In this document: one piece after another, positions 2,907-60,998 of the stretch
Layout: each line of letters opens with the position of its first letter
How positions within the stretch are numbered: position 1 is the first letter of the stretch
Source of the DNA: a virus
Taxonomy: Duplodnaviria; Caudoviricetes
Strand: one strand, 5' to 3'
DNA: 63,242 nucleotides
IMG/VR virus record: IMGVR_UViG_3300032294_001820
Coordinates: 1-63,242 of that record
The notes under the pieces: model-generated
What the model saw: only the letters and a program-made list of their open reading frames with translations
Databases searched by the model: none
What the model was told of the DNA's origin: nothing
Program-made: the position numbers and the translations under genes

Positions 2907-2950
2907 GGCTTAAAAATTTTATGTAAATGTATAGAAAATTAGACACTTTT

Positions 2951-3235: not shown

Positions 3236-3238
3236 TTC

Positions 3239-21700: not shown

Positions 21701-23366
21701 ATCCTATATCAACAGCCTGTGTTGGATTCGAAACAGAACCGCAACCGCAGAAAGCCGGCATATTAGTTATGCCCTCATTGCCATCGCAGGTTAAAATTCC
21801 TCCGTCTTGTTTTTGCCCATCACAAGCAATATTCTTAAAACTGCAACAATCATTCTTTGTTACAGCATTGACTAAACTATATGTTTCATAGCATTTACTA
21901 TTGCTATTTGTTTGATAAACAGACGCAATTGGCAGTGTAGTCGCACCTGCATAAGTATAACTATATGTGTCGTTAATAGAGTTGGTGATAATTTCATCCC
22001 TTCTATCAGGCAGTTGATAATTTGTAAACCCCGTAACAGGCGTAGCAAAACTTTGCCCCATTAAAGAATTCCAAAATCCTACTCCAAAACCGTACTTCTC
22101 GCCTCTGAATAAACTACGATAATAAGTTGTGTAATAGGCATCATTGTACCCAATAGTACCAAGCGGTGCCATTACAGGAAATAAGTTTGGTCGCCCATTG
22201 CTTACGAATGTCGGAGTAAAATCCATTGAGGCATACCTTACATTCATAAGGTGCAAACGGTTCTCAAAGTACCTTAAAGTCTTACAGGCTTCAATAGGAC
22301 CATACTGAACAGTATCGTCTTCATCAGTAATAGGTTCTCCAACTGCACCAAAATCAACAATGTACTTTACTACATTTTCGCCATCAACTAATCCCAATGT
22401 GCCTATAAGTTCTGCACTCGGAGTAAAACCTACGGGAACACCATTGTTATATGAATAACGCTTAATCTCAATGTAGTCGTACCCAAGTTCATTCTGAATC
22501 CTGAAATTAAGTACAATTCCATATCCTGTTTGAGTATTGGGGTCAGCACCATAAGTCTTAATGCTCGGATATTGGTCGCTTTTTACATTTATTTGAACAG
22601 GTACAGGAATTGTCGGAGTAACATTTGTCCATGCAGTTCTATCCCCACTTGTCGTTACATACCGAAATGAATAAGAATACATACCTACTTTTAATCCAGC
22701 AGAACCAATTACTTTATCAGCAGGATAGCCCGGACTTGGAGTAAGTTCAACAAACGACATCATATGTGGAGGCATCTGTGTATTTACCTCATACCTTCTT
22801 CTGTCGAATTCAGTAAAGTATTTCTCCGTACAAACAGGGTCGCTTGAATCTATCATGTCCTGAACATTCAGGATAATAGGTGCAGTTCTGTTATCGGTAA
22901 TATAAATCTCCCCACCAAGGCAGGTATTATTCCAATGGAACTGAATAGGATAATCTATGTCAATTGGCAGTTGTGGACTTGCAGCGTAAATAATGCCGTC
23001 AATACGAATGAATGGAGCAAGTCTTGTTCCCGGAGGTGTATCTGGGGTTTCATCACACCACAACTCAACTATCTTTCCTTTGACAAATATCGTCGCCATA
23101 CACCTCCAAGCACCATTGATGAATGTTGCACCATAGTAACTATTGCAACTATTATCCTCTGAAATATACTCAATCTCTTCTCCACTAATTCTTGACAATG
23201 CCATTTCATCAGCATTAAGCCCCGTTGGTCGCATATTCTCGGCATCAATATACATACCTGAATCTGACTGCCCAAGGAACTGCTCGTCAATGCTATATGA
23301 AGCACCTTTGTTAAAGGCTTTTACATCTATCTCCGTTCCCTTCTGATTGTGTATCGGTAATGGCAT
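18714..23366 (-). CDS. Tail stabilisation / muzzle protein (P22 gp10 / crAss muzzle-like)
   Basis: 1550 aa, N-terminal YIDAENMR motif, beta-propeller-like composition, directly after the ring-protein genes. Confidence 0.7.
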   Translation of the reverse strand: MPLPIHNQKGTEIDVKAFNKGASYSIDEQFLGQSDSGMYIDAENMRPTGLNADEMALSRISGEEIEYISEDNSCNSYYGATFINGAWRCMATIFVKGKIVELWCDETPDTPPGTRLAPFIRIDGIIYAASPQLPIDIDYPIQFHWNNTCLGGEIYITDNRTAPIILNVQDMIDSSDPVCTEKYFTEFDRRRYEVNTQMPPHMMSFVELTPSPGYPADKVIGSAGLKVGMYSYSFRYVTTSGDRTAWTNVTPTIPVPVQINVKSDQYPSIKTYGADPNTQTGYGIVLNFRIQNELGYDYIEIKRYSYNNGVPVGFTPSAELIGTLGLVDGENVVKYIVDFGAVGEPITDEDDTVQYGPIEACKTLRYFENRLHLMNVRYASMDFTPTFVSNGRPNLFPVMAPLGTIGYNDAYYTTYYRSLFRGEKYGFGVGFWNSLMGQSFATPVTGFTNYQLPDRRDEIITNSINDTYSYTYAGATTLPIASVYQTNSNSKCYETYSLVNAVTKNDCCSFKNIACDGQKQDGGILTCDGNEGITNMPAFCGCGSVSNPTQAVDIGYQPLTPISERDPSVTGHDYVINTRVQNDCSSLADFHPAGFAPEYFALGVALNGIDDSLLPSYIQAFSILRTKPAGRVVFQGIGGYYLYPNPSGNATDPAYKATDKLWFYSFEASARAGLISQQVINEIGTNSGSRYEAQLVSPVGIFPEVPHGENRTGLQEDHIDMCLYPRFYEDNATINLTPDPTSTGGYVQFGKWRNAGFPGWEANLNINRASFVLNEFRSANNSGTDTSGIGSEYLGDRGNQFFVLGTSTAVYNVQSVGSNACDNKYPSADLKSFHEPWYNINIVDTLANVPQSDVTTYFDTGAYQKLRSWVGTYTPSSIFFNLAGDERWEDIRPWTPNTYTTVATIDNNTINSIIQIELPDGTVQYWLNADNVSNFNVDLMLPSLPYVIGTNTPGGSKDGVTISGFYRTTFGTFPSNIYSIVFNCGTVPVNPITGSKVIIKYDNEVPVKAFGGDAYTGDDTACFVDRQIPNGGGNPANTGTSSPLPLNLGLPYYEIQVNPRMFITQDARGGGNKIQDCSSLQSRWLRQMIALFNCESRIHLPYNYEAPITDPPSYQMGKFFPVTNYIMRPNEWETTVQDDNFCGGSGIIYDNYKSDYPDEWIYWRYGGYRYQPQFNIDYLHIQNVTFWTTKPTTGFRELTEFCTRDAYSLKREIARVDSPGIRTFLAQNVYDLDDQTGEIKFAWSALGGNKGNNLYAFTERGMCLLLTEDAIIRDATGEQIAMGLVTEGKVIGGEYWISREIGMNEESWRSRAEYNNSLYFMNKTSAYLFNGNEALDIARKFNYFAKIIQYLNAFGNGYATWITSCYDTKHEEYMVQIQNTREETQLFVFSQKNQAWNGRYSYRYDQYLSFDNKTYGMGRWIDGDEAGTYLLDTGDRINNAVVQAKVWQSSAKNQILAKEFQGIRVSSSQVPTRVNLFDNVQQAEAGTIQCFINGADLRNYGSAFEQYIGRRIITGNDNRMQGTAIVYEITFGGSGDFKIVSSGIYWKPLV

Positions 23367-28194: not shown

Positions 28195-29436
28195 TTACTG
28201 AATTGTAATCAATGAAGAATACTGTGGAGCCTCAAACTGTAAGCCCAAAGAAGAACTCATTCCGAACTCATAGAAGTTGTTCAAAGAAGGACCACCGTTG
28301 TTACGAGGATTAATTGTCCAAGTAGCATCATAGCCTAACAATTTAACAGTTTTGATTTTCTCTTTCTGCAATACGAAGGCATAATTTTGCCATGCAGCAG
28401 GGAAACTTGCTCTGTCCTCAAAACGCAAATTAGGTACTAAAACTGCTTTTGCTGAACCGATGTCAATCATGTTCAGGTTCAATTTAGCAACCATGTCGTT
28501 TGGAGTGTAACGAGTCAAGGCAGACTTAAACTGCTTAGACAATTGAAGGATACGAGTAGGGGTAGCAAACAAGAACTTCTCTTCTCCAAGTGGACCACCC
28601 ATTGTGTTCAGCAACGCTGATTCAACGGCATCTCCAAAAGAAGAAATAGGAGTTTGAATGTTTGGACTACCAGCAGCCAACATTTCGTTCAAGATACCAC
28701 CCATCATTTTAACGGGAGTTCCGTCAGCCAAGAACATCATACCTTTTTTACCCATCCACAATTGGTTGGACATAGAGATACGGAAGTTTTTTAACATTCT
28801 ATCACGCTCGTCTGCAAGGAAAGTAGGCAGGTAGTTGTTTGACTTGTATTTCAACAATTCAACAAAACCATAACGCATACCAATCGCTAACAGATAAATG
28901 TAATTGTATTTACGCTGAAGGTTCAAACGGTAGTAGTTGCTGATATTGGTAGCACTATCACCCTCGATTTGAGAAGCAAAAGTAAGAACATCACCTGCTG
29001 CAATAGCAGGAAGACTGTCGTTCTGCATTGGAGTAACGGTAATAACATTACCGGCTTTAGCAGTTACAGTTCCTTGCTTGTTGTTAGGGTAAGTCAATAC
29101 CATGTTCAAGGTAACATTGTCAGAAGTAACAAGGGTTACATTCTGAGTAGTTGGCCATGTAACGGTTGCACTTACGGCATTTACAGGAAGACCATAACGG
29201 TCATAAGGGGCTTCAAACCACTCGTGTTCATCACTTGTCTTAGTGATAGGTGATTTGTCCATAAGCAATTTCAAATCGTAAAACTGCTGTGGGGCAGAAT
29301 CTACAATCGAAGTGTAAATCTCTCTTTCGAGGATTGCTTGTTGTTGGCCTGTTAGACCTCCCCAAAAGGAACCAAGGGGGTTTGCTGCGTTATTATTATA
29401 CGCTGCATTAGGCGGGGTGTATTGTGTACTTGCCAT
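28195..29436 (-). CDS. Major capsid protein (HK97 fold)
   Basis: 413 aa after portal and scaffold; SDEHEWFE and LWMGKK...MMGGIL motifs typical of podovirus capsid proteins. Confidence 0.8.
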   Translation of the reverse strand: MASTQYTPPNAAYNNNAANPLGSFWGGLTGQQQAILEREIYTSIVDSAPQQFYDLKLLMDKSPITKTSDEHEWFEAPYDRYGLPVNAVSATVTWPTTQNVTLVTSDNVTLNMVLTYPNNKQGTVTAKAGNVITVTPMQNDSLPAIAAGDVLTFASQIEGDSATNISNYYRLNLQRKYNYIYLLAIGMRYGFVELLKYKSNNYLPTFLADERDRMLKNFRISMSNQLWMGKKGMMFLADGTPVKMMGGILNEMLAAGSPNIQTPISSFGDAVESALLNTMGGPLGEEKFLFATPTRILQLSKQFKSALTRYTPNDMVAKLNLNMIDIGSAKAVLVPNLRFEDRASFPAAWQNYAFVLQKEKIKTVKLLGYDATWTINPRNNGGPSLNNFYEFGMSSSLGLQFEAPQYSSLITIQ

Positions 29437-30913: not shown

Positions 30914-33175
30914 TTACATTACTTGATTACTTTGTTGCCTCGGTTGTTGCCGACTTGCCATTTGAGCCTCTGACTTCATCATTGTTTCCAATAACTTAGC
31001 ATCCCTATTCTCAGCCATATTCGCATCAGCCCGTTCCATTTGCTCTAATTGTAGCATCTGATTCGCTATCTGCTGCTCCTGTGCCTGTGCCTCCATAGCC
31101 TGTCCTTGTGCTGCCATTGCCTCCTCTTGTTGACGCAGAATCTCCTGTTTCATTTTCAGATACCTGCGACTTGCACTATAAACCTCAGCCGGAGTACACA
31201 AATTAAGTACCTTGCTAAGAGTATTCTCGTCAAGCATACCCATTTGTAACAACTGCATCGCAACAACATTACCTTGGTTAATCAACTCCTTCTCGGGTTC
31301 GCTACGCTGTAAACTAATGCGGAAATCAGCCAATAGGTCATCAGCCGTAAAACTTATTCTCTCAGCACCTTCATCCCCAACAGCATTTATCAAAGTGTGT
31401 GGACTATCAGCATATATCTTCCTACCCCTGTTAGCAATACTCTGATACATTTGCTTCATGCAATCAGCCAAACTAAAGTAGAAATCCTCCTGAATAAGTG
31501 TTCCTCTGTTAATCATTGCCTGATTATTTCTAACCAATTCTAAACTACCGGTTCCAAGCATTTGCTCGTTTACACCCGTAATTGCCAATGCCGCACTTTT
31601 TACCTGACCAATCGCTGCACTTAAATACTCAAACCCATCAAGCCTTGTTCCAGGTATATTCGCAACAGCATTATTCAACCCAAATTTGCCATTTACCAAT
31701 ACAGGGTCGCCATTACGGATATTCCTTCTAAGCCCTTCTTCACCTTCCTCCTCGTCAATAATACCTCTGTCAATTAATGTAACAGGTGGAACTGCCCTAT
31801 TAACTTGATGCTCCTGTGCTGACCAAAAACGGTTAATCATTCGCTGTGGGTCAATCATAGAATCCAACGGACTAACCACCATTCCATTCCAATACTCAAA
31901 GGTCTGGACGCTATATGGGAATTTTGCACTGCTTGGATCTAAACTCGTTGTTTCCTGATAAGGCATAATTCCTGACTCCAAAACAATTGGAGCCATATCA
32001 TCGTCTTCGCCAAATGCACTGCTTGAAATATCGTACACAAATACACAATACCGAACTACATCAGCATTGAATTTCCGCTTCTTTTTGTTCTTACGATTCT
32101 TTCCTGAACCCTGTCCAAGAATCTTTTTATACTTTTCGTCTGTGGCAACAATGAGGTCTTTGTCTTCGTACTTCCCACCTTCGTAGTTAATACGCACAAA
32201 TAACTCATTCTCCATTTCATCGCTAACTACTCCGTATTCGTGTTCCTCAATATCACGCCAAAAAGCATAATAGGTACTTACCCTGCCTGTTTGGTCGCCT
32301 GTCCATAAACCATTGTCAAATTGGTCGCCATTGTTCTGATAACTTGCAATCTTCTCGATTTCCTCCCTTTGGAGTAAGGTCAAATCAGGGTACTTCTCAT
32401 ATATGTAGGTAGGGTCTAAAAACGCTTTATGGCCCATATACATAGAATCGCTTAGGTCATCTTTTTGGGCACTTACATCCCAAAAGAAATACCGGCTATC
32501 TAAACCCTCAAATACTTGGTGTCCGAAATGTTCCTTGTTAAATGCAACACATAGCCCCGAAGCACATAATTGCTTAGTAAGCCACTTCTTTAATTTTCCG
32601 TTTAAATCATTCCTGTCAGCAACAACCTTAATCAAGTTGTTTACATCACGAGTAAGGGTATCGAAATAATAACCATCAAATAGTCTTTCAGCATCTTCTG
32701 GTCCTTCTCCAATCGGGAATTGGTCTTGAAGAATATCCTTGAACATACCTCCCATTTCCTGAGCAATTTGGGAAATAATCATCATTTTGCTCATTTCTTC
32801 ATCTCGTTTCTGCTGAATACTCTCGCTTAGGGGTTCTGCCCTGTATTCGAAACTTGTCCTAATAGCATTACCTACATACTGACGAAGTACAGGTGCCATA
32901 ATATTATCTTGCCACCGAACCCTGCCATTAGGCTGTCCACTTTCGTCATTAAGGAATGTATCAATATCTTCATCCAACATCCACTGCCACTTCATTTGGT
33001 AGTTCGATAAAAGGAACATCCAATTGGTATCAGTTTTTGTTCTAAAAAAAGTTAGCCTCCAATCAAAGATTCTGCTAACAATATAGTTTGCCCAAGCTAA
33101 ATCATAATCCTCACCTTTCTTGCCGTCAATACCGGTAATCCTATTCGGTCTTATAGATGTAGTTGAGTATTCCAT
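30914..33175 (-). CDS. Portal protein
   Basis: 753 aa; DSMIDPQRMINR and AITGVNEQMLG motifs plus a Q-rich C-terminal barrel, typical of P22/crAss-type portals. Confidence 0.85.
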   Translation of the reverse strand: MEYSTTSIRPNRITGIDGKKGEDYDLAWANYIVSRIFDWRLTFFRTKTDTNWMFLLSNYQMKWQWMLDEDIDTFLNDESGQPNGRVRWQDNIMAPVLRQYVGNAIRTSFEYRAEPLSESIQQKRDEEMSKMMIISQIAQEMGGMFKDILQDQFPIGEGPEDAERLFDGYYFDTLTRDVNNLIKVVADRNDLNGKLKKWLTKQLCASGLCVAFNKEHFGHQVFEGLDSRYFFWDVSAQKDDLSDSMYMGHKAFLDPTYIYEKYPDLTLLQREEIEKIASYQNNGDQFDNGLWTGDQTGRVSTYYAFWRDIEEHEYGVVSDEMENELFVRINYEGGKYEDKDLIVATDEKYKKILGQGSGKNRKNKKKRKFNADVVRYCVFVYDISSSAFGEDDDMAPIVLESGIMPYQETTSLDPSSAKFPYSVQTFEYWNGMVVSPLDSMIDPQRMINRFWSAQEHQVNRAVPPVTLIDRGIIDEEEGEEGLRRNIRNGDPVLVNGKFGLNNAVANIPGTRLDGFEYLSAAIGQVKSAALAITGVNEQMLGTGSLELVRNNQAMINRGTLIQEDFYFSLADCMKQMYQSIANRGRKIYADSPHTLINAVGDEGAERISFTADDLLADFRISLQRSEPEKELINQGNVVAMQLLQMGMLDENTLSKVLNLCTPAEVYSASRRYLKMKQEILRQQEEAMAAQGQAMEAQAQEQQIANQMLQLEQMERADANMAENRDAKLLETMMKSEAQMASRQQPRQQSNQVM

Positions 33176-45347: not shown

Positions 45348-45783
45348 AAACCCACACTCCTTTCAATGTTGCGTCTGGGTGCGTGGCGGGAATTAATTGC
45401 CAAATCTCCAAAGCATGATTATAATATCGCACCATCTTCACCTCAATCGCAATTGGGATGCGTGGGGTGCGGAGGGATGCGATAAAGTCATCAAATGAAT
45501 CAAATGGCTCAAGTGTTCTACCGTAAGCGAATGCCTGAGCCATATCGTACAAGGTAAACTCGTACTTCTCACGGGCTTTGGAGTAACCTCTAACAAAGCC
45601 ACTTTTCAAATCTTTATTTAAGTCGTATGGATTACCTCCTCTGATGCTATCAATGTCAGTTCCGTATTGGGATTCAGCCATCCCCTCAATATCATCATCC
45701 TGATAATTTGGTATCTTAGGCAACTTGTACCCCTCCAATTCGGGGCAGGTTAGTTCGGGGGTTAGTTTAAATGTTTTTTTCAT
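45340..45783 (-). CDS. Hypothetical protein
   Basis: 147-aa ORF. Confidence 0.65.
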   Translation of the reverse strand: MKKTFKLTPELTCPELEGYKLPKIPNYQDDDIEGMAESQYGTDIDSIRGGNPYDLNKDLKSGFVRGYSKAREKYEFTLYDMAQAFAYGRTLEPFDSFDDFIASLRTPRIPIAIEVKMVRYYNHALEIWQLIPATHPDATLKGVWVYE

Positions 45784-45784
45784 G

Positions 45785-45940
45785 TTAATTACAATCGTTT
45801 AATTCAAATTCAATGATTTTTGAAACTTTCCTGTACATAAAATAATAGAAGTCTGGATAATAATTACTTCGATTCAATCTCCTTGCCTCGATTCGGTTGC
45901 GGATGTCGGAGGGGCGGATTATTTTTTTGTGGATAAACAT
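45785..45940 (-). CDS. Small hypothetical protein (51 aa)
   Basis: Hand-translated MFIHKKIIRPSDIRNRIEARR...ELNDCN*, filling the gap exactly. Confidence 0.45.
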   Translation of the reverse strand: MFIHKKIIRPSDIRNRIEARRLNRSNYYPDFYYFMYRKVSKIIEFELNDCN

Positions 45941-45943
45941 ATT

Positions 45944-45998
45944 TAAATTGCTGATTGTCAGATATGGTTTAGAATATTGTTGCGTAAAGCCTGTTGTT
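45944..45998 (+). other. attI-like landing pad A
   Basis: IHF-like box (AATCAGCAATTTA on minus, 45944-45956), N23, TTGCGTA, N7, TTG^TT; same layout as pad B. Confidence 0.6.
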
Positions 45999-46803
45999 AG
46001 CTGCCATGCCGTGACAGCCTCCGTTAAAACATTCGTAGTTGTGATTTGAAGTCATTAAAACGCTTTTTAGATTTTTCGTAATAATCGGCATCAATCTCAA
46101 ATCCAACAAAGTTGAACCCACCTTTGTCCGCTGCTATTCGTGAGCTTCCACTTCCCAAGTGAGTATCCAAAATCAAATCCCCACGCTTTGCATAGTTCTG
46201 TAAAATCCAATCATACAATGCTACTGGCTTTTGTGTGGGATGTATCCGTTCTTCTTTGTCCTTCATATTCTGTTGTAACATTCCGTTCCATCTCCATTGA
46301 AACTTCCTTACTGCAGTATCAAATGAAGTCCAAGCCAATTCACAATCAGCGAAGTTTCCTGTATTGTCTTTATCCCACACAAGCCAGCAGCTACTATCGT
46401 GTGGCATTTTACTAATAAAGTGATTAGCCCCCCACACAATTTGATTTTTGGATACTCTAAACAGTTGGCGGAAATATTCTTCATTTGGTGGCTGTTTATC
46501 CCATTCTTTAGCTCCGTAATCCTTAGCTTTACCTGCGTTGTTTCCGCCAACCTTCCCAGTTTTAGCCACGTCAATCCCATAAGGTGGGTCAACTATCGCT
46601 AAATCAAAATGGTTATCGTTAAAGCGTTTTAATGCCTCCGTGCAGTCTTCTAAATAAACTTCGGTGAAAGGCACGGCAGCTAACACGGGTTTGGCAAAAG
46701 CGGGGCTTCCGTTTTCCAAATCAACTTTTGTATGTAAATCAAATTCTGTCATTCTATTAAACTTTTGTGGTTAAATTCCCCGCCTTCGCCAAGCCCGAAA
46801 ACG
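45997..46803. mobile_element. Integron-like gene cassette 1 (807 bp)
   Basis: Start GTTAGCTGCC (45996) is the exact reverse complement of GGCAGCTAAC (46675), which opens its attC-like hairpin. Confidence 0.8.
46024..46752 (-). CDS. DNA N6-adenine / N4-cytosine methyltransferase (beta class)
   Basis: IVDPPY, HPTQKP and LDTHLGSGS motifs. Confidence 0.92.
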   Translation of the reverse strand: MTEFDLHTKVDLENGSPAFAKPVLAAVPFTEVYLEDCTEALKRFNDNHFDLAIVDPPYGIDVAKTGKVGGNNAGKAKDYGAKEWDKQPPNEEYFRQLFRVSKNQIVWGANHFISKMPHDSSCWLVWDKDNTGNFADCELAWTSFDTAVRKFQWRWNGMLQQNMKDKEERIHPTQKPVALYDWILQNYAKRGDLILDTHLGSGSSRIAADKGGFNFVGFEIDADYYEKSKKRFNDFKSQLRMF

Positions 46804-46812
46804 TTATGTGCC
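46675..46812 (+). repeat. attC-like site 1
   Basis: ...CTAAC, 20-nt arm 46686-46705, loop, 20-nt arm 46778-46797 (17/20 complementary), AAAAC, GTT. Confidence 0.8.
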
Positions 46813-47134
46813 ATTAATAGACACCACTCCAAGTACAATTGTGATACGGCTTCTTAATGTCGTTGCCGTTTTTGCCTCTTAATTTAAGAGAGTTGGTTCT
46901 CTTAAATCCAAAGTTTTTAAAATAAGCGACCTCAATAAACGGCAACTTAAATCCGAATGAATAATGAAAATGGTGTATGTAATGAACACCAGTAAGCAAT
47001 TGAATTAATCTAAATTTTTTCATCTGTTTTTAAATTTTAACGGCACATAACAAGGGCTTTGCGTAATAGCCCTATCAAGTGTCGTGGTTAATTTTAAGTT
47101 TCTACTAAGGGCTACTACGCAAAGCCCCGATACG
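46804..47134. mobile_element. Integron-like gene cassette 2 (331 bp)
   Basis: Start GTTATGTGCC (46803) is the exact reverse complement of GGCACATAAC (47042). Confidence 0.8.
46814..47023 (-). CDS. Small basic hypothetical protein (cassette 2 cargo)
   Basis: 69-aa ORF filling the cassette, with an A-rich leader. Confidence 0.55.
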   Translation of the reverse strand: MKKFRLIQLLTGVHYIHHFHYSFGFKLPFIEVAYFKNFGFKRTNSLKLRGKNGNDIKKPYHNCTWSGVY

Positions 47135-47140
47135 TTACCT
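47042..47140 (+). repeat. attC-like site 2
   Basis: ...ATAAC, arms GGGCTTTGCGTAATAGCCCT / AGGGCTACTACGCAAAGCCC (19/20), CGATAC, GTT. Confidence 0.8.
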
Positions 47141-47524
47141 CTTTACCCCTATCCAAAACCCATCCCCACTAATCGGGTATCGGTCAACCCGTTTGAATTC
47201 GAGTTTGCCCGGTGTAATGCGATAAATCAGGGCTTCGTTATTCCAATCAGTAACATCCCAGACCTGAACGAAATAATGCGAGTGTTTGCCGTAAAGTTTG
47301 ATAATAACGGCACAATCCGAGGCGAGTGTATCTTTATCGGACATAAACCAATCGGGGTACAAGCAGGACAAAGGAATAGCATCGAAGCCTTCGTAAACCT
47401 CGTTACGATTCAAGTCTATTAGTACCGTATCTTTTGGAATTTCGTTTCGGGTAAGCGTCCATCCGGCATAGTATTTATCGGATTCAAGTGCCCATAGTGG
47501 GTGTGTTGATGGTGTGAATGTCAT
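47135..47524 (-). CDS. Hypothetical protein
   Basis: 129 aa; its TAA stop forms the GTT core that closes array A. Confidence 0.65.
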   Translation of the reverse strand: MTFTPSTHPLWALESDKYYAGWTLTRNEIPKDTVLIDLNRNEVYEGFDAIPLSCLYPDWFMSDKDTLASDCAVIIKLYGKHSHYFVQVWDVTDWNNEALIYRITPGKLEFKRVDRYPISGDGFWIGVKR

Positions 47525-47697
47525 GATACGCTAAATGTTTTACCTGTTGATGTTTCGCAATAATACCTGCCTATTAAACCGTTTCTATAATGGAAATCGT
47601 TTGCAACAGATATTGCATGATTGTCTGAAATTGCTTCAAGTTTAAATTCTTGAATATTTACCCCACCGGAAATCTTGAACATTATAAATGTTATCAT
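47521..47697 (-). CDS. Small hypothetical protein (58 aa)
   Basis: Hand-translated MITFIMFKISGGVNIQ...GKTFSVS*; ATGA overlap; follows an ECF-like motif. Confidence 0.55.
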   Translation of the reverse strand: MITFIMFKISGGVNIQEFKLEAISDNHAISVANDFHYRNGLIGRYYCETSTGKTFSVS

Positions 47698-47705
47698 ACT
47701 CCTTA

Positions 47706-47730
47706 TACGCTATTCGTTCCAAAAAGTTAC
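47706..47730 (-). promoter_or_regulatory. ECF-sigma-like promoter GTAAC-N16-CGTA
   Basis: Followed by TAAGGAGTATG. Confidence 0.65.
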
Positions 47731-47846
47731 TTGCCCGTCTTAACTATCCTCAATATTGTCGATTCGGCTTTGCCGTACATTTTGGCTATGTCGTAGATTG
47801 ACATTCCACACTCGTAAAATGCAAGGATGTATTGGGTTTCGGTCAT
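47727..47846 (-). CDS. Mini HTH protein (39 aa)
   Basis: Hand-translated MTETQYILAFYECGMSIYDIAKMYGKAESTILRIVKTGK*. Confidence 0.55.
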   Translation of the reverse strand: MTETQYILAFYECGMSIYDIAKMYGKAESTILRIVKTGK

Positions 47847-48625
47847 TTCAATTTCGGGTTAACTCTCAATGATTTCTTCCAGTCCAAGCCGGATGGGAGG
47901 GTGTGGTTAGATTTAAAATCAACTTGATTCCAAGTGCCTTCTCTTCCCATGTTGTGAAGTACACCATACCAGCGACCTTTTCCGATTTCATCAAAACAAT
48001 GCACATTAGCCCAATCCGGAGCCTTCTCCCAATCCACCTGATACGGGTCGGGTTCAGAGTTGCGTAATGATTCAGCCGTTCTAATTATTTCGTCAAGTTC
48101 GGTTTGCGTTGCAATTACATTGTGTTCCTGATGCAATAGGTTAAACAATGGCTGATAATATTCAGCAACTTCCTGTATTGGTTTAGCCGTAACCGATTCG
48201 TGTACGCTGATGTGGTATTGGATAGGTCGGATGGGGCGGTAGCGGTTAGTGGATGGGATTGTAGGATTGTTCCAGATGTAACCAACTTGCATTTGCTCCG
48301 ATTCTGGCACACTCAAAATTATCTCCACCTTCACCCACTTCTCCGCATCTTCCTCGGTGCAGAACTCGTAGCCTTCTGGGAGTAAATGGGTGTAATCGGG
48401 TTCTGAACTATTCGGTTTTTCCGAATGGTTCAACTTCCCAAAATTATTCGGAATGTGCTGTTCGGCTAAGTGTGCCTCGATTCGCTCAATCCTTAATTGA
48501 AGTCTGTCAATTTGTTCCTGTTTTTTCCCCATTGGTTTAATTATATTAATGATTTCCTGCATATCTGAATCGGTTGCAATCAACCCCAATTCATGTAGAT
48601 AGTTAAATAGTTTTTGGTTTTTCAT
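47843..48625 (-). CDS. Mosaic hypothetical protein
   Basis: 260 aa with an internal repeat LFNxLH...IATxxxxxEII and a C-terminal VDWEKAPDWA module. Confidence 0.65.
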   Translation of the reverse strand: MKNQKLFNYLHELGLIATDSDMQEIINIIKPMGKKQEQIDRLQLRIERIEAHLAEQHIPNNFGKLNHSEKPNSSEPDYTHLLPEGYEFCTEEDAEKWVKVEIILSVPESEQMQVGYIWNNPTIPSTNRYRPIRPIQYHISVHESVTAKPIQEVAEYYQPLFNLLHQEHNVIATQTELDEIIRTAESLRNSEPDPYQVDWEKAPDWANVHCFDEIGKGRWYGVLHNMGREGTWNQVDFKSNHTLPSGLDWKKSLRVNPKLK

Positions 48626-48978
48626 GGTTTAAATAGATTGCTGGTGATTTTCAAAAGTGAAGGATACCTCCAATTATGCAAGTGCCAAAACTCGCCATTG
48701 CTATTCTCGACAACAAATGAACCATTTCTATATAAAACCTCTCCCAAAACCTCTCCTGTTATTCTTACTCGCATTCCTTCAAATATTTTATCTGCATTTT
48801 TATCGCACAACCCCGTAAACTGCCCAACGCTGTCGGGGTGAACGGGGATAATATCAGTTAGGCTATTTATTTCAATTGGAAGAATCCATTTTTTATTTAT
48901 CTCACATTGAATCAAATCACCCTCAACCCACTTGTTTAGGCTTTCTGAGAAGCCTCTAAATAGTATTATTCTTTTCAT
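48622..48978 (-). CDS. YopX-family protein
   Basis: ILFRG...WVEGDL...VGQFTGLCDKN..KIFEG motif. Confidence 0.85.
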   Translation of the reverse strand: MKRIILFRGFSESLNKWVEGDLIQCEINKKWILPIEINSLTDIIPVHPDSVGQFTGLCDKNADKIFEGMRVRITGEVLGEVLYRNGSFVVENSNGEFWHLHNWRYPSLLKITSNLFKP

Positions 48979-48986
48979 ACTCCTTT

Positions 48987-49019
48987 TACGCTTACTTACT
49001 CGGTTTTGTTACAAATGTA
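48987..49019 (-). promoter_or_regulatory. ECF-like promoter (48987-49012) plus TACATTTG box (49012-49019)
   Basis: GTAAC-N17-CGTA followed by AAAGGAGTATG. Confidence 0.65.
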
Positions 49020-49071
49020 AGTTGTTGATGTTCATATGTGAATTATGGTAGTATTGCGTATATTTATTGTT
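49018..49071 (+). other. attI-like landing pad B
   Basis: IHF-like box (CATCAACAACTTA on minus, 49018-49030), N23, TTGCGTA, N6, TTG^TT. Confidence 0.6.
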
Positions 49072-49822
49072 AGCGGAAAGCATTAGCACCCTGCTTATCA
49101 TTGAACATTTTTACCCTTTGTTCGTCAATTTCGTATGCTATAAAATTCCTATTTAATTCTTGACAAACTTCGCCAACTATTCCACTCCCAAAAAACGGGT
49201 CTAAAACTATCCCATTATCAGGGCAAAAGCATTTAATAAGTATCTGTATTAAATCTTTCGGCTTTGCAGGTATTTTTCCCGTATGTGGCTTATTAAAATG
49301 ATAGTGGTCTCTTATCCAAGTTCCTTCATCTGATTTATCAAATTGCCTTCCTTCCGCTTTGTAGTCTCCAAATACCTTACTACTTCGCTTCATTGATTTT
49401 GTGCCTTCATTGTAATCTAATCCAGTTCTTACATCTACATAAAAGTCTTTGCTCAATGTAAGCCAAAAAATTTTTTGGAAGGATACAAGTGGCATTCGCT
49501 TACTTACCCAAGCACCACCATTTGAAAAACTCCAAATAATTTCACGCCTAAATATGTGGTTTACTTCGTTCCGCAATTCGTAATCAAATGGTTGCTTAGT
49601 GAAGCAAATAATATTTCCAGTTAGTTTTGTAACCCTTACTGCTTGACAAATTAAACCTTCTTCGCAAAGTTTATCCCAATCCTGATAATCGGGGTCTAAT
49701 ATTGTTAAGTCAATACTATGGTCATCTAAATCGCAAATTAAATCCATTGCGTTACCGAGAATTAACCCATGCCTTCCGCTAACATCGGTTTGGCAAAATG
49801 GGGGCTGACTGCTTTCTATCAT
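49070..49822 (-). CDS. DNA N6-adenine / N4-cytosine methyltransferase (beta class, DPDY variant)
   Basis: ILDPDY, PAKPKDL and VLDPFFGSG motifs. Confidence 0.85.
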   Translation of the reverse strand: MIESSQPPFCQTDVSGRHGLILGNAMDLICDLDDHSIDLTILDPDYQDWDKLCEEGLICQAVRVTKLTGNIICFTKQPFDYELRNEVNHIFRREIIWSFSNGGAWVSKRMPLVSFQKIFWLTLSKDFYVDVRTGLDYNEGTKSMKRSSKVFGDYKAEGRQFDKSDEGTWIRDHYHFNKPHTGKIPAKPKDLIQILIKCFCPDNGIVLDPFFGSGIVGEVCQELNRNFIAYEIDEQRVKMFNDKQGANAFR

Positions 49823-49902
49823 CTTTTATCTGTTATTGAACATTAGTAATTCTAATCGGCTTTTGTTGGTATAATTCCCCCACTTCGCCAAGCCCGAAAA
49901 CG
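49070..49902. mobile_element. Integron-like gene cassette 3 (833 bp)
   Basis: Start GTTAGCGGAAAGCAT (49069) matches the reverse complement of ATGCCTTCCGCTAAC (49769-49783) at 14/15. Confidence 0.8.
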
Positions 49903-49908
49903 TTATTC
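49771..49908 (+). repeat. attC-like site 3
   Basis: Same AAC-to-GTT length as attC1 (124 nt); shares TTTGGCAAAA and CTTCGCCAAGCCCGAAAACGTTAT, with compensatory changes in the stem. Confidence 0.8.
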
Positions 49909-50211
49909 CTCCATCGCCTTCCTTGCAATATTTTCCCGGAACAAATCTTTCCTACTGCAATACAAATCCCACATAGCCATTTCTTGCGAAGTTATCTGGT
50001 CAATGACCAAATCTGTTTGATGAATTGAAACCAAATATAACGCCTTGTTAGTGATTGCTTCTTTCCGCCAATACATTTCATTGGTTTTGGAAATATCTCG
50101 CCGTGTTGAGGCTGTAATCCACGCTACGATTAATCCGGCACAGATAAAGGTCATCAGGTAGAATCCGAACTTGTAATAAAATCGGTAGGTATAGGAGGAG
50201 GGCATTTTCAT
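49903..50211 (-). CDS. Single-TM hypothetical protein
   Basis: FYLMTFICAGLIVAWI; its TAA stop forms the GTT core that closes array B. Confidence 0.6.
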   Translation of the reverse strand: MKMPSSYTYRFYYKFGFYLMTFICAGLIVAWITASTRRDISKTNEMYWRKEAITNKALYLVSIHQTDLVIDQITSQEMAMWDLYCSRKDLFRENIARKAMEE

Positions 50212-50468
50212 AATTCGTCCTGTGTGTTGTTTGGTGTTAAATTATACCTGTTTAAATAATCCACTCCGATATGAGGCACATTGTCCCTTATGTAGAATTG
50301 GCAGAATTTAATTTGCACGGCTTTGAGGTCGCTGTACGGCACTAATTCGATTCCAGATTTATTACTTGCAATCATCCGGTAAAGCATGATTTTTAGATTC
50401 TCGTTCTCGTATTGTAACGATTCGAGGCGTTTCTCTAATTCCTGAACTTGTTGGGATAGTTTGGTCAT
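50208..50468 (-). CDS. Hypothetical coiled-coil protein
   Basis: 86 aa with ATGA overlaps. Confidence 0.6.
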   Translation of the reverse strand: MTKLSQQVQELEKRLESLQYENENLKIMLYRMIASNKSGIELVPYSDLKAVQIKFCQFYIRDNVPHIGVDYLNRYNLTPNNTQDEL

Positions 50469-50968
50469 ACTATCACCCCCATGCTTTCCTTAATTCCTTC
50501 CGAAATCGTCTGGTTGACTACGGGGTAAGTGAGTTCGTGGATGTCGAATTGATTATTATTCGCTATAAACCTAATTAACATTTTTCTTCTCGGTCTTTCC
50601 CAATTAACTTTTTTTAGTTCATTGTAGAGATTATCCATAGCGTAATACATACCACGATTAAACAACATTTCCAACATAGCCCATGGTCTTACATCGTATA
50701 GTTCAAACCTATTTACATCGTCCCTATCTTTCAGTTCCCAATCTTTCCGCCAATCAAGTGAATCATGGTTAAAATTATGCTGAACGGTCTTGACATTATT
50801 ATCCCGGTCAAACTGAACCAAGCACGGCTTACCGCCCGATTCGATTTGGAAATTCTTTAGTTGGTCGTAATTATCGAACTGGCAATACAAGGTCTGGCCG
50901 TTCGGTAAAATAGCCTCGGCAAGTGCTGGGCAGTCTTGGGGCGTTTCGTGAAGTTTGGTCATAATCAT
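50465..50968 (-). CDS. Hypothetical protein
   Basis: 167-aa ORF in a tightly packed operon. Confidence 0.6.
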   Translation of the reverse strand: MIMTKLHETPQDCPALAEAILPNGQTLYCQFDNYDQLKNFQIESGGKPCLVQFDRDNNVKTVQHNFNHDSLDWRKDWELKDRDDVNRFELYDVRPWAMLEMLFNRGMYYAMDNLYNELKKVNWERPRRKMLIRFIANNNQFDIHELTYPVVNQTISEGIKESMGVIV

Positions 50969-52423: not shown

Positions 52424-53236
52424 TTAATTGTCTGGAGTAATATCTAACGGAAGTTCTCCATTGTTTGTTTCAGGTTGTTCTTGTTGCTGAACAAACAACT
52501 CATTCAAATTAGGCTTCTCAACAATGAACTGCTGATTATCCAAGTCAATTACATTGCTAATCTGCTCAGACTTCGGCAAATACTTGTAGTGCCTCTTAAT
52601 TACGGTTTTCTTCCGCATTTCATCAGCCCAATTACTTTCCTGCCAAGGACTATATTGAGAGTTTGCACCATCACTTTTACTTTTAATCTTCTCTAACTCC
52701 CATCCAGGCATAAACTCATAATCAAGGCTTCCATCTGCTAATGTAGCACAGGAATATGCCCCAATTACTTTCCTTGCCATGTGTTCCTTCTCGGTTTCAG
52801 CATATCTTTGCTCATGTACTACGACCATTCTCGTACTTGCATTGTACTCAAATTGTTCATCGTCATAAACAACTACTGCTGATACCTTCTTTACGCTTCC
52901 TGAATCAGTAAGAATCTTTGTCAAACCCATATAAGAAGGGTCAAGTACGGCTTTCCCTTTGCGTGGGATAAGATATGCCAACTTCATTGCAGGATTCAAT
53001 GTAAGCCCTGTAAATGCGATATTCTCAACAGCACTACGAATGCTCACTAAATCAACATTCTGCCACCCTTTAGGATTGTTCTGAATAATTTGCAAGGCAA
53101 AGTTAGCCTCCTTGACAAATGTTTCCTGTGGCATTACGGATAGGAACCTCGCTTTTGCTGCTGCGATAGCCTCTGAAGGGGTAGTGATTTTTGCAGGTTT
53201 ATTTTCCTGCTTCTGAATTGCGTTTGTTTCTGACAT
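52424..53236 (-). CDS. recT: RecT-family ssDNA annealing protein
   Basis: GLTLNP...AYLIPR...SYMGL, SPW...EMRKKTVIKR..KYLPKS. Confidence 0.9.
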   Translation of the reverse strand: MSETNAIQKQENKPAKITTPSEAIAAAKARFLSVMPQETFVKEANFALQIIQNNPKGWQNVDLVSIRSAVENIAFTGLTLNPAMKLAYLIPRKGKAVLDPSYMGLTKILTDSGSVKKVSAVVVYDDEQFEYNASTRMVVVHEQRYAETEKEHMARKVIGAYSCATLADGSLDYEFMPGWELEKIKSKSDGANSQYSPWQESNWADEMRKKTVIKRHYKYLPKSEQISNVIDLDNQQFIVEKPNLNELFVQQQEQPETNNGELPLDITPDN

Positions 53237-53251
53237 GATTATTGGTTTAAA

Positions 53252-54130
53252 TTAAAGTTCTACTAATCCAAATTCGTTTGTGGCAAAGTATTCTACTCCT
53301 GGCCATTTAACACCCTCCATCCAAGGTTCTCCAAACTTATCAAGGCAATCACGATAAATCTGCTTCGCACGAGTGTAAATAGTCTTTCCTGCACTAACAG
53401 AATAATCCTGCCAAACAGAGTTAAATTCACCTGGAGATTGTGGCACCAAGAAAAATCCGTTCTGTTGGCTTTCTTTATGACATCCAATTACGATATGATA
53501 CTTGGTTTCGATACCCATTGTTACCTCTACGGCTTCGGTATAAACTGCTAATTGAGCATGAATAAGCCTATCTCTGTGCTTAATGTAGGTTTTCATACTT
53601 TCAATATCAATGTCGGGTAGTTTCTTTAAGTCGCCTATTACAGCAAATCCTGAAACAACTTTGAACAAATCCACTTTGCCTTTCATGGGAATATTGTACT
53701 CAGTGTCTATCCAATGAAATTCCTTCTCTACTTCGGCATCGCTGAATAGTTGCTGATAGATTGGAGATTTACGAACATTTCCTGCGGTACTCATAATTTC
53801 ATCCCAATCTTCTTGTTTGATAATTGGAGTTACTTTATCGAGTTCGCATTGATTTAGAAATTCATCCCGGATGCCTTTGTTTACTGCGGATCGAAATTCA
53901 ATCTTACCTTCTTTGTTGCGTTCAAGCCTTGTGTCTGCAAGTAGTCTGAATCTATTAAAGATTTCAGTTTGTTCCATTGTTGCTGTATGGATAAACTGCC
54001 CGTGGTTCATTGCTTCTGTGGTTTCGATGCCATTAAGCAGGTAGTATTGGTAGTGTGCAGGACTTTTCAGAATATGCTTTATTCCTGAACTGCTGAAACG
54101 GGTTTTGTCTGAGTAATATATTTGGCTCAT
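53252..54130 (-). CDS. RecE / exonuclease VIII-like PD-(D/E)XK nuclease
   Basis: SSSGIK...SPAHY, KGKVD...GDLK, QLAVY; adjacent to recT. Confidence 0.8.
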   Translation of the reverse strand: MSQIYYSDKTRFSSSGIKHILKSPAHYQYYLLNGIETTEAMNHGQFIHTATMEQTEIFNRFRLLADTRLERNKEGKIEFRSAVNKGIRDEFLNQCELDKVTPIIKQEDWDEIMSTAGNVRKSPIYQQLFSDAEVEKEFHWIDTEYNIPMKGKVDLFKVVSGFAVIGDLKKLPDIDIESMKTYIKHRDRLIHAQLAVYTEAVEVTMGIETKYHIVIGCHKESQQNGFFLVPQSPGEFNSVWQDYSVSAGKTIYTRAKQIYRDCLDKFGEPWMEGVKWPGVEYFATNEFGLVEL

Positions 54131-60157: not shown

Positions 60158-60998
60158 TTGTCAGTTGTGGTGGTGGTGGATTAAAAAATATTGTTTGACT
60201 TTTAATTTCTTCTGCTACCTTTTCTCGTTTGCGAATATCTGCAATAACAGGGCTGTTTTTTACAGATAGTGCCTCCCTTGCGTTTTTCATCACCCAAGAC
60301 TTACGCAAAACCGATTCATCTCGGACATATAACTCTTTCCCGCAATATCTGTCATTCTGTGCTTTGTAGAGGTCAAGTTGAATTATCATTTCATGAAGCA
60401 TAACCTTACCAAATTCCTTCAATAGTTTATCGTAATCCTGCCTTCTTAGGTAAACTAATTCATTTCCAAGTTTAACCTGCTCCTTTCCATCTTCCTTCAT
60501 CTTAGCCAAAAACTCTTCCTCGCTTAAAAAGTTTTTCTTTTTTCTTTTAGGTGAAACTTTGTTTACAGGTAAACTTTGTTCTTCTTGGGGTAAACTTTGT
60601 TTACTCAATAAGATTATAGAAGAATTATTTATACTATGTATATCTTCTTTTAATATATTATTGGGTAAACTTAGTTTACTCCTTTCGTTAACTTTGTTAA
60701 CCGGTAAACTTAGTTGACCGGTAAACTTAGTTAACCCCTCCTGATTTACCATTAACCATCCTTGTTCATTCTTAATCAGTAAGTTACGCTCAATAAGTCT
60801 CTGAATTGCTTTCAACAAACCTACCTTGCTCATGCCGAACTCTTCCGCAAGTCTTAACTTACCTACATAGCACCATCCTGAACCATTTTGGTCATACTCT
60901 GAAAAGTATCTAATCCTTTCAAGCAATCCAGCCTCAACAAAGGAAATGTTTAATTCCTTCATCAAAGCCAGATTGACCATTACGAATGATTCTTTCAT
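60147..60998 (-). CDS. Replication initiator (lambda-O-like, N-terminal wHTH)
   Basis: GWCY...LAEEFGMS...IQRLIERNLL HTH, internal iterons, upstream of dnaB. Confidence 0.75.
   Translation of the reverse strand: MKESFVMVNLALMKELNISFVEAGLLERIRYFSEYDQNGSGWCYVGKLRLAEEFGMSKVGLLKAIQRLIERNLLIKNEQGWLMVNQEGLTKFTGQLSLPVNKVNERSKLSLPNNILKEDIHSINNSSIILLSKQSLPQEEQSLPVNKVSPKRKKKNFLSEEEFLAKMKEDGKEQVKLGNELVYLRRQDYDKLLKEFGKVMLHEMIIQLDLYKAQNDRYCGKELYVRDESVLRKSWVMKNAREALSVKNSPVIADIRKREKVAEEIKSQTIFFNPPPPQLTNEQ
60552..60735. repeat. Iteron array / putative replication origin
   Basis: Seven GTAAACTTWGTTWAC-like quasi-palindromes (60552, 60569, 60590, 60665, 60687, 60704, 60721) around an AT-rich gap at 60605-60664. 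Confidence 0.8.

What the first reader, a model, noticed from the sequence alone, without database searches (positions are those of the whole stretch)
46675..49905. Cassette genes are antisense, two start inside the attC, and arrays dock exactly at phage stop codons
Seen: all three cassette ORFs lie on the strand opposite to the attC direction. The two methyltransferases start within the attC loop (46752, 49822), so their N-termini (MTEFDLHTKVDLENGSPAFAKPVLAA; MIESSQPPFCQTDVSG) are translated recombination-site sequence. The GTT closing each array overlaps the TAA stop of the upstream phage gene (47135-47137; 49903-49905), and the stop of MTase 2 is the TTA of the left core (49070-49072). Established: most classical cassettes are co-oriented with attC. 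Inference: the pads are oriented so that only reverse-type cassettes are transcribed by the phage operon. Host-type forward cassettes, such as defence genes, would be silent here. This suggests a phage-specific cassette pool.
Basis: partly seen in the sequence, partly recalled or inferred. Interest (0 to 1): 0.8.

Follow-up and report, generated by a model that had tools for sequence, protein, structure and literature searches.

The report
Backwards integron cassettes in a phage
A phage of Bacteroidota carries three integron-style mobile gene cassettes, two of them DNA methyltransferases, whose genes run backwards through their recombination hairpins and start inside them; this arrangement is common in related phages and rare in bacterial arrays that use the same hairpins.

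Summary
Three attC-like hairpins (46681-46806, 47048-47137, 49780-49905) close three cassettes bounded by G|TT. All three genes are antisense to the hairpins. Both methyltransferase ORFs begin in a hairpin loop. The final GTTA of each array supplies the TAA stop of the upstream phage gene.

Related phages have empty sites at both places, or a different cassette at site 1. The same hairpin family occurs in at least 120 viral and 120 Bacteroidota genome contigs. Flanking genes are antisense in viral contigs (72 reverse, 7 forward). They are co-oriented in genomes (69 forward, 4 reverse). A structure-only detector gives the same split.

Homologues of the two methyltransferases show that the N-terminal leaders are modular and hairpin-encoded. 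Methyltransferase 2 has no other usable start.

Host arrays lie next to a XerA-like tyrosine recombinase that lacks the IntI-specific domain. The hairpins lack canonical extrahelical bases.

The idea of pre-existing "pads" is not: the sites are ordinary gene ends. Not tested: which recombinase acts on the phage, read-through transcription, and actual translation starts. I rate this a new variant of a known kind, interest about 0.8.

The parts
45785..45940 (-). Phage gene downstream of array 1 (51 aa). Its N-terminus differs from empty-site relatives (MFIHKKIIRPSD versus MKVRPSD).
45917..45996 (.). 80 nt absent from empty-site relatives. Includes a 17-nt GTT..GTT remnant (45979-45996) that resembles a hairpin 3' end. 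Forms the distal junction of array 1.
   Evidence: reading of the sequence
45997..46803 (+). Cassette 1 (TT...G): methyltransferase 1 plus hairpin A.
   Evidence: I9; contigs run on unlike at 45996
46024..46752 (-). DNA methyltransferase 1 (242 aa, PF01555). The first 24 codons are encoded by the loop and 5' arm of hairpin A.
46681..46806 (+). attC-like hairpin A (R-box extensions 46670-46817).
46804..47134 (+). Cassette 2: 69-aa ORF plus hairpin B.
   Evidence: (I14)
46814..47023 (-). 69-aa ORF. No Pfam family and no relative among the fetched loci. Starts outside hairpin B.
47048..47137 (+). attC-like hairpin B, a different sequence family with the same architecture. Closes array 1.
   Evidence: (I2)
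47135..47524 (-). Phage gene (129 aa) upstream of array 1. Its TAA stop is the TTA of GTTA.
49009..49069 (.). 61 nt absent from the empty-site relative L003, lying between GTTACA (49008-49013) and cassette 3. No hairpin. Nature unresolved.
49070..49902 (+). Cassette 3: methyltransferase 2 plus hairpin C.
   Evidence: I12; contigs start or run on unlike at 49069
49070..49822 (-). DNA methyltransferase 2 (250 aa, PF01555). The first 14 codons are encoded by the loop and 5' arm of hairpin C. Its stop is the TTA of the left core.
49780..49905 (+). attC-like hairpin C, same family as A.
   Evidence: (D2, D6)
49903..50211 (-). Phage gene (102 aa) upstream of array 2. Its TAA stop is the TTA of GTTA. 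It is 7 codons shorter than in L003.

Best explanation
These are integron-type gene cassettes: a circularisable unit plus a folded hairpin site, with crossover at G|TT. They belong to a phage-adapted, mirror-image class.

In this class the gene is antisense to the hairpin. The hairpin therefore lies at the 5' end of the gene. Its variable loop carries the start codon, and its conserved arm is translated as a short leader, in either of two frames. The gene runs to the other cassette boundary, where the core TTA can serve as its stop.

The cassettes were inserted at the 3' ends of phage genes, where TAA followed by C on the coding strand reads G|TTA on the other strand. That target polarity forces the hairpin direction to oppose phage transcription. 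Only reverse cassettes are then in sense with the phage operon.

The cargo here is two orphan DNA methyltransferases, which most likely protect phage DNA from host restriction.

Shown: the anatomy, the boundaries, empty and differently filled sites, the phage-versus-host orientation split, and the modular leaders.

Inferred: that a host XerA-like recombinase found beside host arrays moves the cassettes, that transcription is read-through, that translation starts in the loop, and that the methyltransferases act against restriction.
For: 1. Architecture. All three hairpins are TAAC..GTTA, and the minus strand folds better through G.T or G.U pairs. As DNA: -22.4 versus -18.1, -20.5 versus -19.1, -16.3 versus -11.1 kcal/mol. 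As RNA: -44.8 versus -39.5, -44.6 versus -34.5, -36.1 versus -30.7.

2. Each unit's first 15-16 nt are complementary to its own R'' extension (I9, I12, I14).

3. Empty and refilled sites. Of 7 related loci, 4 (L001, L003, L006, L007) are empty at site 1, and 3 (L002, L004, L005) hold another hairpin plus two small ORFs at the same stop. All 7 are empty at site 2.

4. Other metagenomes hold arrays 1 and 2 but not the backbone between them. Contigs run on into unlike sequence at 45996, 46815, 47036-47039, 47137 and 49069. One run holds the empty-site joint 45916>47148.

5. Six of 16 local alignments of at least 250 nt reach the 3' arm of A. All six stop at 46805-46810, although at least 524 nt of locus follow.

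6. The family is widespread. The 19-mer of the arm hits at least 120 viral contigs and at least 120 genome contigs, nearly all Bacteroidota.

7. Orientation.
- Viral, 140 elements: left unit 72 reverse, 7 forward, 52 none, 9 at an edge; right neighbour 106 reverse, 10 forward.
- Genome, 104 elements: left 69 forward, 4 reverse; right 62 forward, 10 reverse.
- The minority calls are short ORFs.
- Structure-only detector: viral 160 reverse, 13 forward of 256; genome 93 forward, 11 reverse of 152.

8. Starts.
- The first in-frame ATG lies in the loop in 62 of 79 viral reverse ORFs.
- A loop ATG open through to R'' in the two readable frames occurs in 39 + 46 of 126 viral hairpins, against 8 + 4 of 93 genome hairpins.
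- Methyltransferase 2: the 4 closest of 120 listed homologues carry such leaders. No such leader was seen in the other 116, and most of them start within about a dozen residues of the GDAM/GNAM motif. The window's gene has no start codon there.
- Methyltransferase 1: one core is joined to at least 5 different leaders. 57 of 120 homologues have a leader. Leaderless ones start a few residues before EVY.EDC.

9. Cargo. Of 41 loop-start proteins scanned, 15 match N6_N4_Mtase and 3 match C5 methylase.

10. Cultured Flavobacterium phages carry three such methyltransferase cassettes in a row. Their describers linked a missing methyltransferase to reduced plating (PMC7077304, passages read).

11. Host arrays sit directly downstream of a tyrosine recombinase in 4 genomes and in 7 further loci.
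Against: - No recombinase is found in the window, so the enzyme and the timing of movement are inferred.
- The hairpins fail two canonical attC features. There is no extrahelical base near L''. Instead there is a 4-nt bulge on the arm next to R', with a spacer of 5 nt against 1 nt (PMC5027507, introduction read).
- The host recombinase scores below the integron-integrase cut-off (198-212 bits against 265) and lacks the IntI domain.
- The junctions with the empty-site relatives are not clean. 80 nt at site 1 and 61 nt at site 2 lack a hairpin and are unexplained.
- The conserved 20-25 nt arms could let the phage's own RecT (52424-53236) swap units by homology.
- For methyltransferase 1, an in-frame GTG inside the arm (46676-46678) could be the real start.
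- Fifty-two of 140 viral elements had no ORF of 50 aa or more by my rule.
- Viral and genome contigs come from metagenome bins and may be partly misassigned.
- The contigs are not phylogenetically independent.
Confidence: 0.75

Rival explanations
1. The hairpins are portable expression modules: a structured leader with a start codon, working at RNA level. In phages they are shuffled by homologous recombination between their conserved arms, for example through the phage RecT, in the manner of the promoter stem-loops of T4-type phages. Site-specific recombination at G|TT would then happen only in bacteria, or not at all.
For: - The arms are 86-87% identical between A and C, and the same 19-mer recurs across hundreds of contigs.
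- The sense-strand RNA folds 5-10 kcal/mol better than the antisense strand.
- The window encodes RecT and a PD-(D/E)XK nuclease.
- There is no recombinase in the window.
- One methyltransferase core is joined to several different loops.
Against: - Similarity between contexts ends at G|TT or the R box, not inside the arms.
- Each unit keeps a 15-16 nt complement of its own R''. This is expected from circular cassettes cut at G|TT.
- Insert boundaries against empty sites fall on TAAC.
- Hairpin B and the hairpin of L002 share architecture with A and C but not sequence.
- Host arrays adjoin a tyrosine recombinase.
Confidence: 0.15
2. The true starts lie downstream of the hairpin. The loop ATGs and leaders are artefacts of open frames, and the hairpin is only 5' untranslated sequence.
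For: - Methyltransferase 1 has in-frame GTG codons at the R'' end of the arm.
- One database homologue is called from such a GTG (P0150).
- Two of the three frames through the arm have no stop by sequence, so frames stay open for free (and my reading).
Against: - Methyltransferase 2 has no ATG, GTG or TTG between the hairpin and the conserved GNAM helix, where no leader was seen in 116 of 120 listed homologues and most of them start.
- In-frame loop ATGs are about five times more frequent in viral than in host hairpins of the same family.
- In 62 of 79 viral reverse ORFs the first ATG is in the loop.
Confidence: 0.08
3. These are ordinary intergenic terminators or chance palindromes, with no mobility.
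For: They are GC-rich stems lying between genes.
Against: - There is no U-tract, and the hairpins overlap gene starts.
- Three hits against 0-1 in shuffles.
- The family is shared with host arrays.
- Empty sites exist in relatives.
Confidence: 0.01

Closest known systems
[quoted passage not shown] 2023, PMC9892861; abstract and section 3.4 read)
   Same: Hairpin recombination sites and cassettes sit in virulent phages with no integrase in the phage. DNA methyltransferases are among the cargo (five reported there). A Flavobacteriia phage is among their cases.
   Different: That section describes cassettes 'oriented in the same direction' as typical and notes divergent attC directions in one phage. 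It reports no systematic antisense gene orientation, no start codons inside attC, no leader peptides and no phage-versus-host contrast. Its supplementary tables were not available to me.
Canonical integron cassettes and attC sites (Nivina et al. 2016, PMC5027507; introduction read)
   Same: AAC/GTT triplets, crossover at G|TT, an imperfect hairpin with a more stable bottom strand, size within 57-141 nt, arrays of single-gene units, and host arrays beside a tyrosine recombinase.
   Different: The gene is antisense to the site in phages. There is no extrahelical base near L'', and a 4-nt bulge lies beside R'. The arm sequence is conserved across several Bacteroidota families. The neighbouring host recombinase lacks the IntI-specific domain.
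Integrase-mediated insertion of cassettes at genomic secondary sites, attG (bioRxiv 10.1101/2022.09.11.507474; passages read)
   Same: Cassettes are inserted outside attI at short sites, can be expressed from a resident promoter, and can be excised again.
   Different: Here the sites are the ends of phage genes, the junction supplies the stop codon, and the cassette genes are reversed. No experiment was done.
Promoter stem-loop cassettes (PeSL) of T4-type phages
   Same: Short stem-loops upstream of small accessory genes that mark modular exchange in phage genomes.
   Different: Those are thought to act through homologous recombination and carry promoters. Here the hairpin family is shared with recombinase-linked host arrays, and boundaries fall on G|TT.
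Reverse-oriented cassettes with their own promoters in chromosomal integrons, such as toxin-antitoxin cassettes (known from search listings and from recall)
   Same: The gene is antisense to the array direction.
   Different: Those are a minority within host arrays and carry promoters. Here the reverse class dominates in phages and uses the hairpin loop as the translation start.

Membership tests
Integron attC site / gene cassette (canonical) | Conserved AAC ... GTT triplets with crossover at G|TT | tested here: met
   TAAC..GTTA in A, B and C. Insert boundaries against empty sites fall on TAAC/GTTA. Similarity in other contexts ends there.
Integron attC site / gene cassette (canonical) | 7-nt consensus RYYYAAC / GTTRRRY | tested here: inconclusive
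   By eye: A matches 6/7 and 6/7, B matches 6/7 and 5/7, C matches 5/7 and 5/7.
Integron attC site / gene cassette (canonical) | Imperfect hairpin, bottom strand the better folder, length 57-141 nt | tested here: met
   Lengths are 126, 90 and 126 nt.
Integron attC site / gene cassette (canonical) | Extrahelical bases near L'' on the bottom strand | tested here: not met
   Folds show only a 4-nt bulge on the R'-side arm and one C x A mismatch. The feature is as defined in PMC5027507.
Integron attC site / gene cassette (canonical) | Unpaired central spacer of about 5-6 nt on both arms | tested here: not met
   5 nt against 1 nt in A and C, and 6 against 2 in B.
Integron attC site / gene cassette (canonical) | The cassette's own 5' end is complementary to its own R'' | tested here: met
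   I9, I14 and I12, 15-16 nt at 93-94%.
Integron attC site / gene cassette (canonical) | Gene co-oriented with attC | tested here: not met
   All three ORFs are antisense. This is general in viral contigs.
Integron attC site / gene cassette (canonical) | Integron integrase with the IntI-specific additional domain | tested here: not met
   None in the window. Recombinases beside host arrays score 198-212 bits against the 265 cut-off of TIGR02249. Their alignment to 2a3v skips chain residues 202-242.
Integron attC site / gene cassette (canonical) | Detection by the IntegronFinder or HattCI attC models | not testable with these tools
   Neither model is available here. Rfam holds no attC family, and one search found nothing above threshold.
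[quoted passage not shown] | Two or more attC sites close together with no integrase nearby | tested here: met
   Array 1 has hairpins A and B 242 nt apart, with no integrase in the 63-kb record. Array 2 has a single site. This depends on accepting the hairpins as attC.
N6/N4 DNA methyltransferase (PF01555) | Pfam domain above the gathering score | tested here: met
   68.9 and 82.3 bits against a cut-off of 26.7.
XerA-type tyrosine recombinase (host array neighbour) | NCBIfam NF040815 above its cut-off | tested here: met
   227.5 and 233.8 bits against 220 for two proteins; the third scores 200.5, below the cut-off. The best solved relatives are archaeal XerA.

The most novel reading that the evidence does not exclude
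Bacteroidota and their phages may share one hairpin-based cassette exchange system that is read from opposite strands.

Bacteria store forward cassettes behind a XerA-like recombinase that has no IntI domain. This would be an integron-like platform distinct from classical integrons.

Phages keep a mirror-image pool in which the recombination hairpin doubles as the translation start and encodes the first 14-24 residues. With it, anti-restriction methyltransferases and other accessory genes can be plugged in behind any TAA-C stop codon, using the host's recombinase during infection.
Probability: 0.45. Interest if true: 0.9.

Novelty: new variant of a known kind. Interest (0 to 1): 0.8.

Why it matters
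Phage accessory genes such as orphan methyltransferases vary between near-identical phages and help set host range. How they are swapped is mostly unknown.

This suggests a concrete route: site-specific cassette exchange that uses a hairpin family shared with the host, but with gene polarity reversed. Host defence cassettes and phage counter-defence cassettes would then form separate pools, each expressed only in its own context.

It also shows a recombination site serving as coding sequence and as a translation start. That is a compact design that could be reused for phage engineering.

The host side matters too. Arrays next to a XerA-like recombinase without the IntI domain would widen the definition of integron-like systems. 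Tools keyed to IntI and to canonical attC features may miss such systems.

Cultured Flavobacterium phages with three such cassettes make the idea directly testable.

Tried and rejected
- Rfam scan of 45500-50500 at E up to 1: only a sub-threshold potC match (23.5 bits against 44). No known RNA family.
- Integron-integrase (TIGR02249) and phage-integrase (PF00589) searches of the record: no candidates.
- Relatives of the 167-aa neighbour (50465-50968) in viral contigs: none confirmed.
- Portal protein against cultured phages: no match, so no named relative of the backbone.
- tblastn of the 69-aa ORF against all fetched loci: nothing.
- Reading the hairpins in the opposite direction (gene-sense strand as top strand, gene followed by its hairpin): considered because the bulge sits on the 'wrong' arm. 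Rejected because empty-site comparisons put the hairpin at the gene-upstream end of the insert, because methyltransferase 2 would then straddle the crossover, and because host arrays of the same family fix the polarity.
- IS200/IS605-type single-strand transposition: considered, but no HUH transposase was seen, and the arrays adjoin tyrosine recombinases.
- RNA libraries: the run laid (X16) holds contigs of cassette 3 and parts of array 1. Contigs of an RNA library cannot show transcription, a start or a strand, so no claim is made.
- Weak hairpin-like hits at 28926-29071, 31543-31649 and 60818-60950 (16 of 18 pairs) lie inside coding regions and are treated as probable chance.


Full report
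**What is there**

The window is a 63-kb virus record with no end repeats, estimated 90% complete. From about 45 kb to 62 kb nearly all genes are on the minus strand.

Three long imperfect hairpins read TAAC...GTTA on the plus strand:
- A: 46681-46806
- B: 47048-47137
- C: 49780-49905

A and C are 86-87% identical in both arms. B has the same architecture but a different sequence. A structural scan finds exactly these three at 17 or more of 18 pairs, against 0-1 in each of 12 shuffles.

In every case the minus strand folds better, because A x C mismatches on the plus strand become G.T or G.U pairs.

The three ORFs between and beside the hairpins are on the minus strand. Two are N6/N4 DNA methyltransferases.

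**Why these are cassettes**

Each unit is flanked by a 15-16 nt inverted repeat. The first bases after a G|TT are the complement of the R'' extension of the hairpin on the unit's right (I9, I14, I12). This is the mark of a circular unit cut between G and TT.

Seven related phage loci were found through the 129-aa neighbour.
- At site 1, four of them (L001, L003, L006, L007) have no insert. The gene ends in TGA overlapping the ATG of the next gene, so 12 nt stand where the window has 1225 nt.
- Three (L002, L004, L005) have, at the same stop, a different hairpin followed by two small ORFs in the phage's direction.
- At site 2, all seven are empty. In L003 the 102-aa gene reads 7 codons further, through TGTAAC. 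The window's insert (49009-49902) is bracketed by TAAC repeats.

Contigs from other metagenomes cover the two arrays but not the backbone between them. They run on into unlike sequence at 45996, 46815, 47036-47039, 47137 and 49069. One run holds the empty-site joint.

Among the fetched loci, six alignments reach the 3' arm of A. All six stop at 46805-46810, although at least 524 nt follow.

**The family and the orientation split**

A 19-mer of the arm hits at least 120 viral contigs and at least 120 genome contigs. The genome hits are nearly all Bacteroidota bins and isolates.

I found 303 elements by fuzzy arm matching, 244 of them with both arms. Using ORFs of 50 aa or more:

| Source | Elements | Left unit | Right neighbour |
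|---|---|---|---|
| Viral | 140 | 72 reverse, 7 forward, 52 none, 9 at an edge | 106 reverse, 10 forward |
| Genome | 104 | 69 forward, 4 reverse, 23 none, 8 at an edge | 62 forward, 10 reverse |

The minority calls are short, doubtful ORFs.

A detector that uses only the architecture gives the same result, including for hairpins of other sequence families in the same loci:
- Viral: 160 reverse, 13 forward of 256.
- Genome: 93 forward, 11 reverse of 152.

In four host arrays, 31 hairpins share one direction and 1 opposes it. Twenty-three of 27 units are forward.

**Starts inside the hairpin**

In 62 of 79 viral reverse ORFs that cross R'', the first in-frame ATG is in the loop.

The conserved arm is read in two frames (31 and 31 cases). 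The third frame usually meets TAG in GTTAG. The nucleotide conservation is therefore not protein conservation.

Loop ATGs that stay open through to R'' in those two frames occur in 39 + 46 of 126 distinct viral hairpins, against 8 + 4 of 93 genome hairpins.

Methyltransferase 2:
- The four closest of 120 listed homologues carry hairpin-type leaders.
- No such leader was seen in the other 116. Most of them start within about a dozen residues of the GDAM/GNAM helix.
- The window's gene has no ATG, GTG or TTG at that position.

Methyltransferase 1:
- The same core follows at least five different leaders.
- 57 of 120 homologues have a leader by pattern, 56 have none, and 7 lacked the anchor.
- Leaderless ones start a few residues before EVY.EDC.
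- An in-frame GTG in the arm remains a possible start for this gene.

All of this is indirect. No ribosome or peptide data exist here.

**Stops on the core**

In viral contigs, the upstream reverse ORF ends exactly on the TTA of G|TTA in 35 of 134 elements, and 12 nt further in 28. Among neighbours that are not themselves cassettes, the exact overlap holds in 21 of 53.

The overlap is common but not a rule. In the window it is a product of the junction rather than the ancestral stop.

**Host platform**

In four host genomes the hairpin arrays lie directly downstream of, and in the same direction as, a 360-388 aa tyrosine recombinase (244 aa, N-terminally truncated, in the fourth, G005). Seven more of the 120 genome loci show the same arrangement.

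These proteins pass or approach NCBIfam's 'site-specific tyrosine recombinase/integron integrase' model. They fall below the integron-integrase cut-off. Their alignment to the Vibrio integron integrase structure skips its residues 202-242, which form the IntI-specific domain. Their best solved relatives are archaeal XerA.

The hairpins, in turn, lack an extrahelical base near L'' and have a 4-nt bulge beside R'. The system works like an integron but fails two defining features on each side.

Two viral loci encode a 37-38% identical recombinase beside a reverse cassette.

**Function**

Of 41 loop-start proteins scanned (out of 61 distinct; near-duplicates and three spurious ones were dropped):
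- 15 match N6/N4 methyltransferase.
- 3 match C5 methyltransferase.
- 6 match other families: radical SAM, HNH, DUF1643, a MetRS-like enzyme and two HTH proteins.
- 17 match nothing.

Cultured Flavobacterium phages (vB_FspS_hemulen6-1 and relatives) carry three methyltransferase cassettes in a row, each annotated start lying in a hairpin loop.

The paper describing those phages reports 15 methyltransferase types among 35 genomes, and reduced plating of phages that lack one. It does not use the words integron, cassette or hairpin (PMC7077304; passages and term counts).

**Mechanism proposed**

A host recombinase recombines the folded bottom strand of a circular cassette with a G|TTA on the phage. 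The end of a gene, TAA followed by C, offers that site on the non-coding strand. The hairpin direction therefore opposes transcription.

Only cassettes whose gene is antisense to the hairpin are then in sense. These carry their start codon in the loop, because the hairpin is the only sequence between the gene and the cassette boundary.

The target logic and the enzyme are inference. How reverse cassettes first arise is unexplained.

**Compared with what is known**

Clusters of attC sites in phages, with methyltransferase cargo, were reported in 2023 (PMC9892861; abstract and section 3.4 read, supplements not seen). Insertion at genomic secondary sites is also known (bioRxiv 10.1101/2022.09.11.507474; passages read).

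In six full-text searches and in the passages I read, I found no report of any of the following:
- antisense cassettes as the phage norm;
- starts and leaders encoded by attC;
- this Bacteroidota hairpin family with a XerA-like neighbour.

The library lacks most subscription journals.

**Limits**

- ORF calls are crude.
- Bins may mix phage and host contigs.
- Contigs are not independent samples.
- The 80-nt and 61-nt segments at the distal ends of the arrays are unexplained.

Noticed in passing
L256:16935-18041 (-), L258:1314-2396 (-), L260:16828-17994 (-), L259:1487-2221 (+): Bacteroidota chromosomal hairpin arrays begin right after a co-oriented XerA-like tyrosine recombinase that lacks the IntI-specific domain. 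The same arrangement appears in 7 more of the 120 genome loci. This may be an integron-like platform that tools keyed to IntI would miss.
   Followed up: partly
L022:1596-2480 (+) and L056:4183-5016 (+): Two viral contigs encode a tyrosine recombinase 37-38% identical to the host array recombinase. It lies just downstream of a reverse methyltransferase cassette. It could be a phage integrase or a phage-borne cassette recombinase.
   Followed up: partly
L261 (MN812208.1) 1970-4984: The cultured Flavobacterium phage vB_FspS_hemulen6-1 has three consecutive methyltransferase genes (gp005-007) plus a small ORF, each preceded by a hairpin of this architecture. The annotated starts lie in the loops.
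   Followed up: yes
window 45917-45996 and 49009-49069; L002 about 4860-4900: The distal ends of both arrays, and of the different array in L002, share a short AAC|AATA(A/T)AT-type junction without a hairpin. It may be an attI-like site or a cassette remnant.
   Followed up: partly
window 28926-29071 (-), 31543-31649 (+), 60818-60950 (+): Three weak hairpin-like hits (16 of 18 pairs) lie inside coding regions. This is somewhat more than shuffles give at that score (0-2 per shuffle).
   Followed up: no
window 47678-47711 and 48959-48992: A 34-nt direct repeat (79% identical) covers the start regions of two minus-strand genes. On the sense strand it reads AGCGTA(A/T)AAGGAGTATG. It is a shared start or ribosome-binding motif, also seen in relatives.
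   Followed up: no
window 45916 to 49054 (run X4): Contigs in a lake metagenome join 45916 directly to 49054 with 11 other letters between. This points to a phage variant lacking the whole stretch that holds array 1 and four backbone genes.
   Followed up: no
window 52424-54130: A RecT and PD-(D/E)XK nuclease pair, a phage recombination module that could exchange units through the conserved hairpin arms.
   Followed up: no
window 7058-14578 and 18714-23366: Two very large minus-strand ORFs (2506 and 1550 aa) have almost no family match. The only hit is an LPD38 domain at the C-terminus of the first.
   Followed up: no
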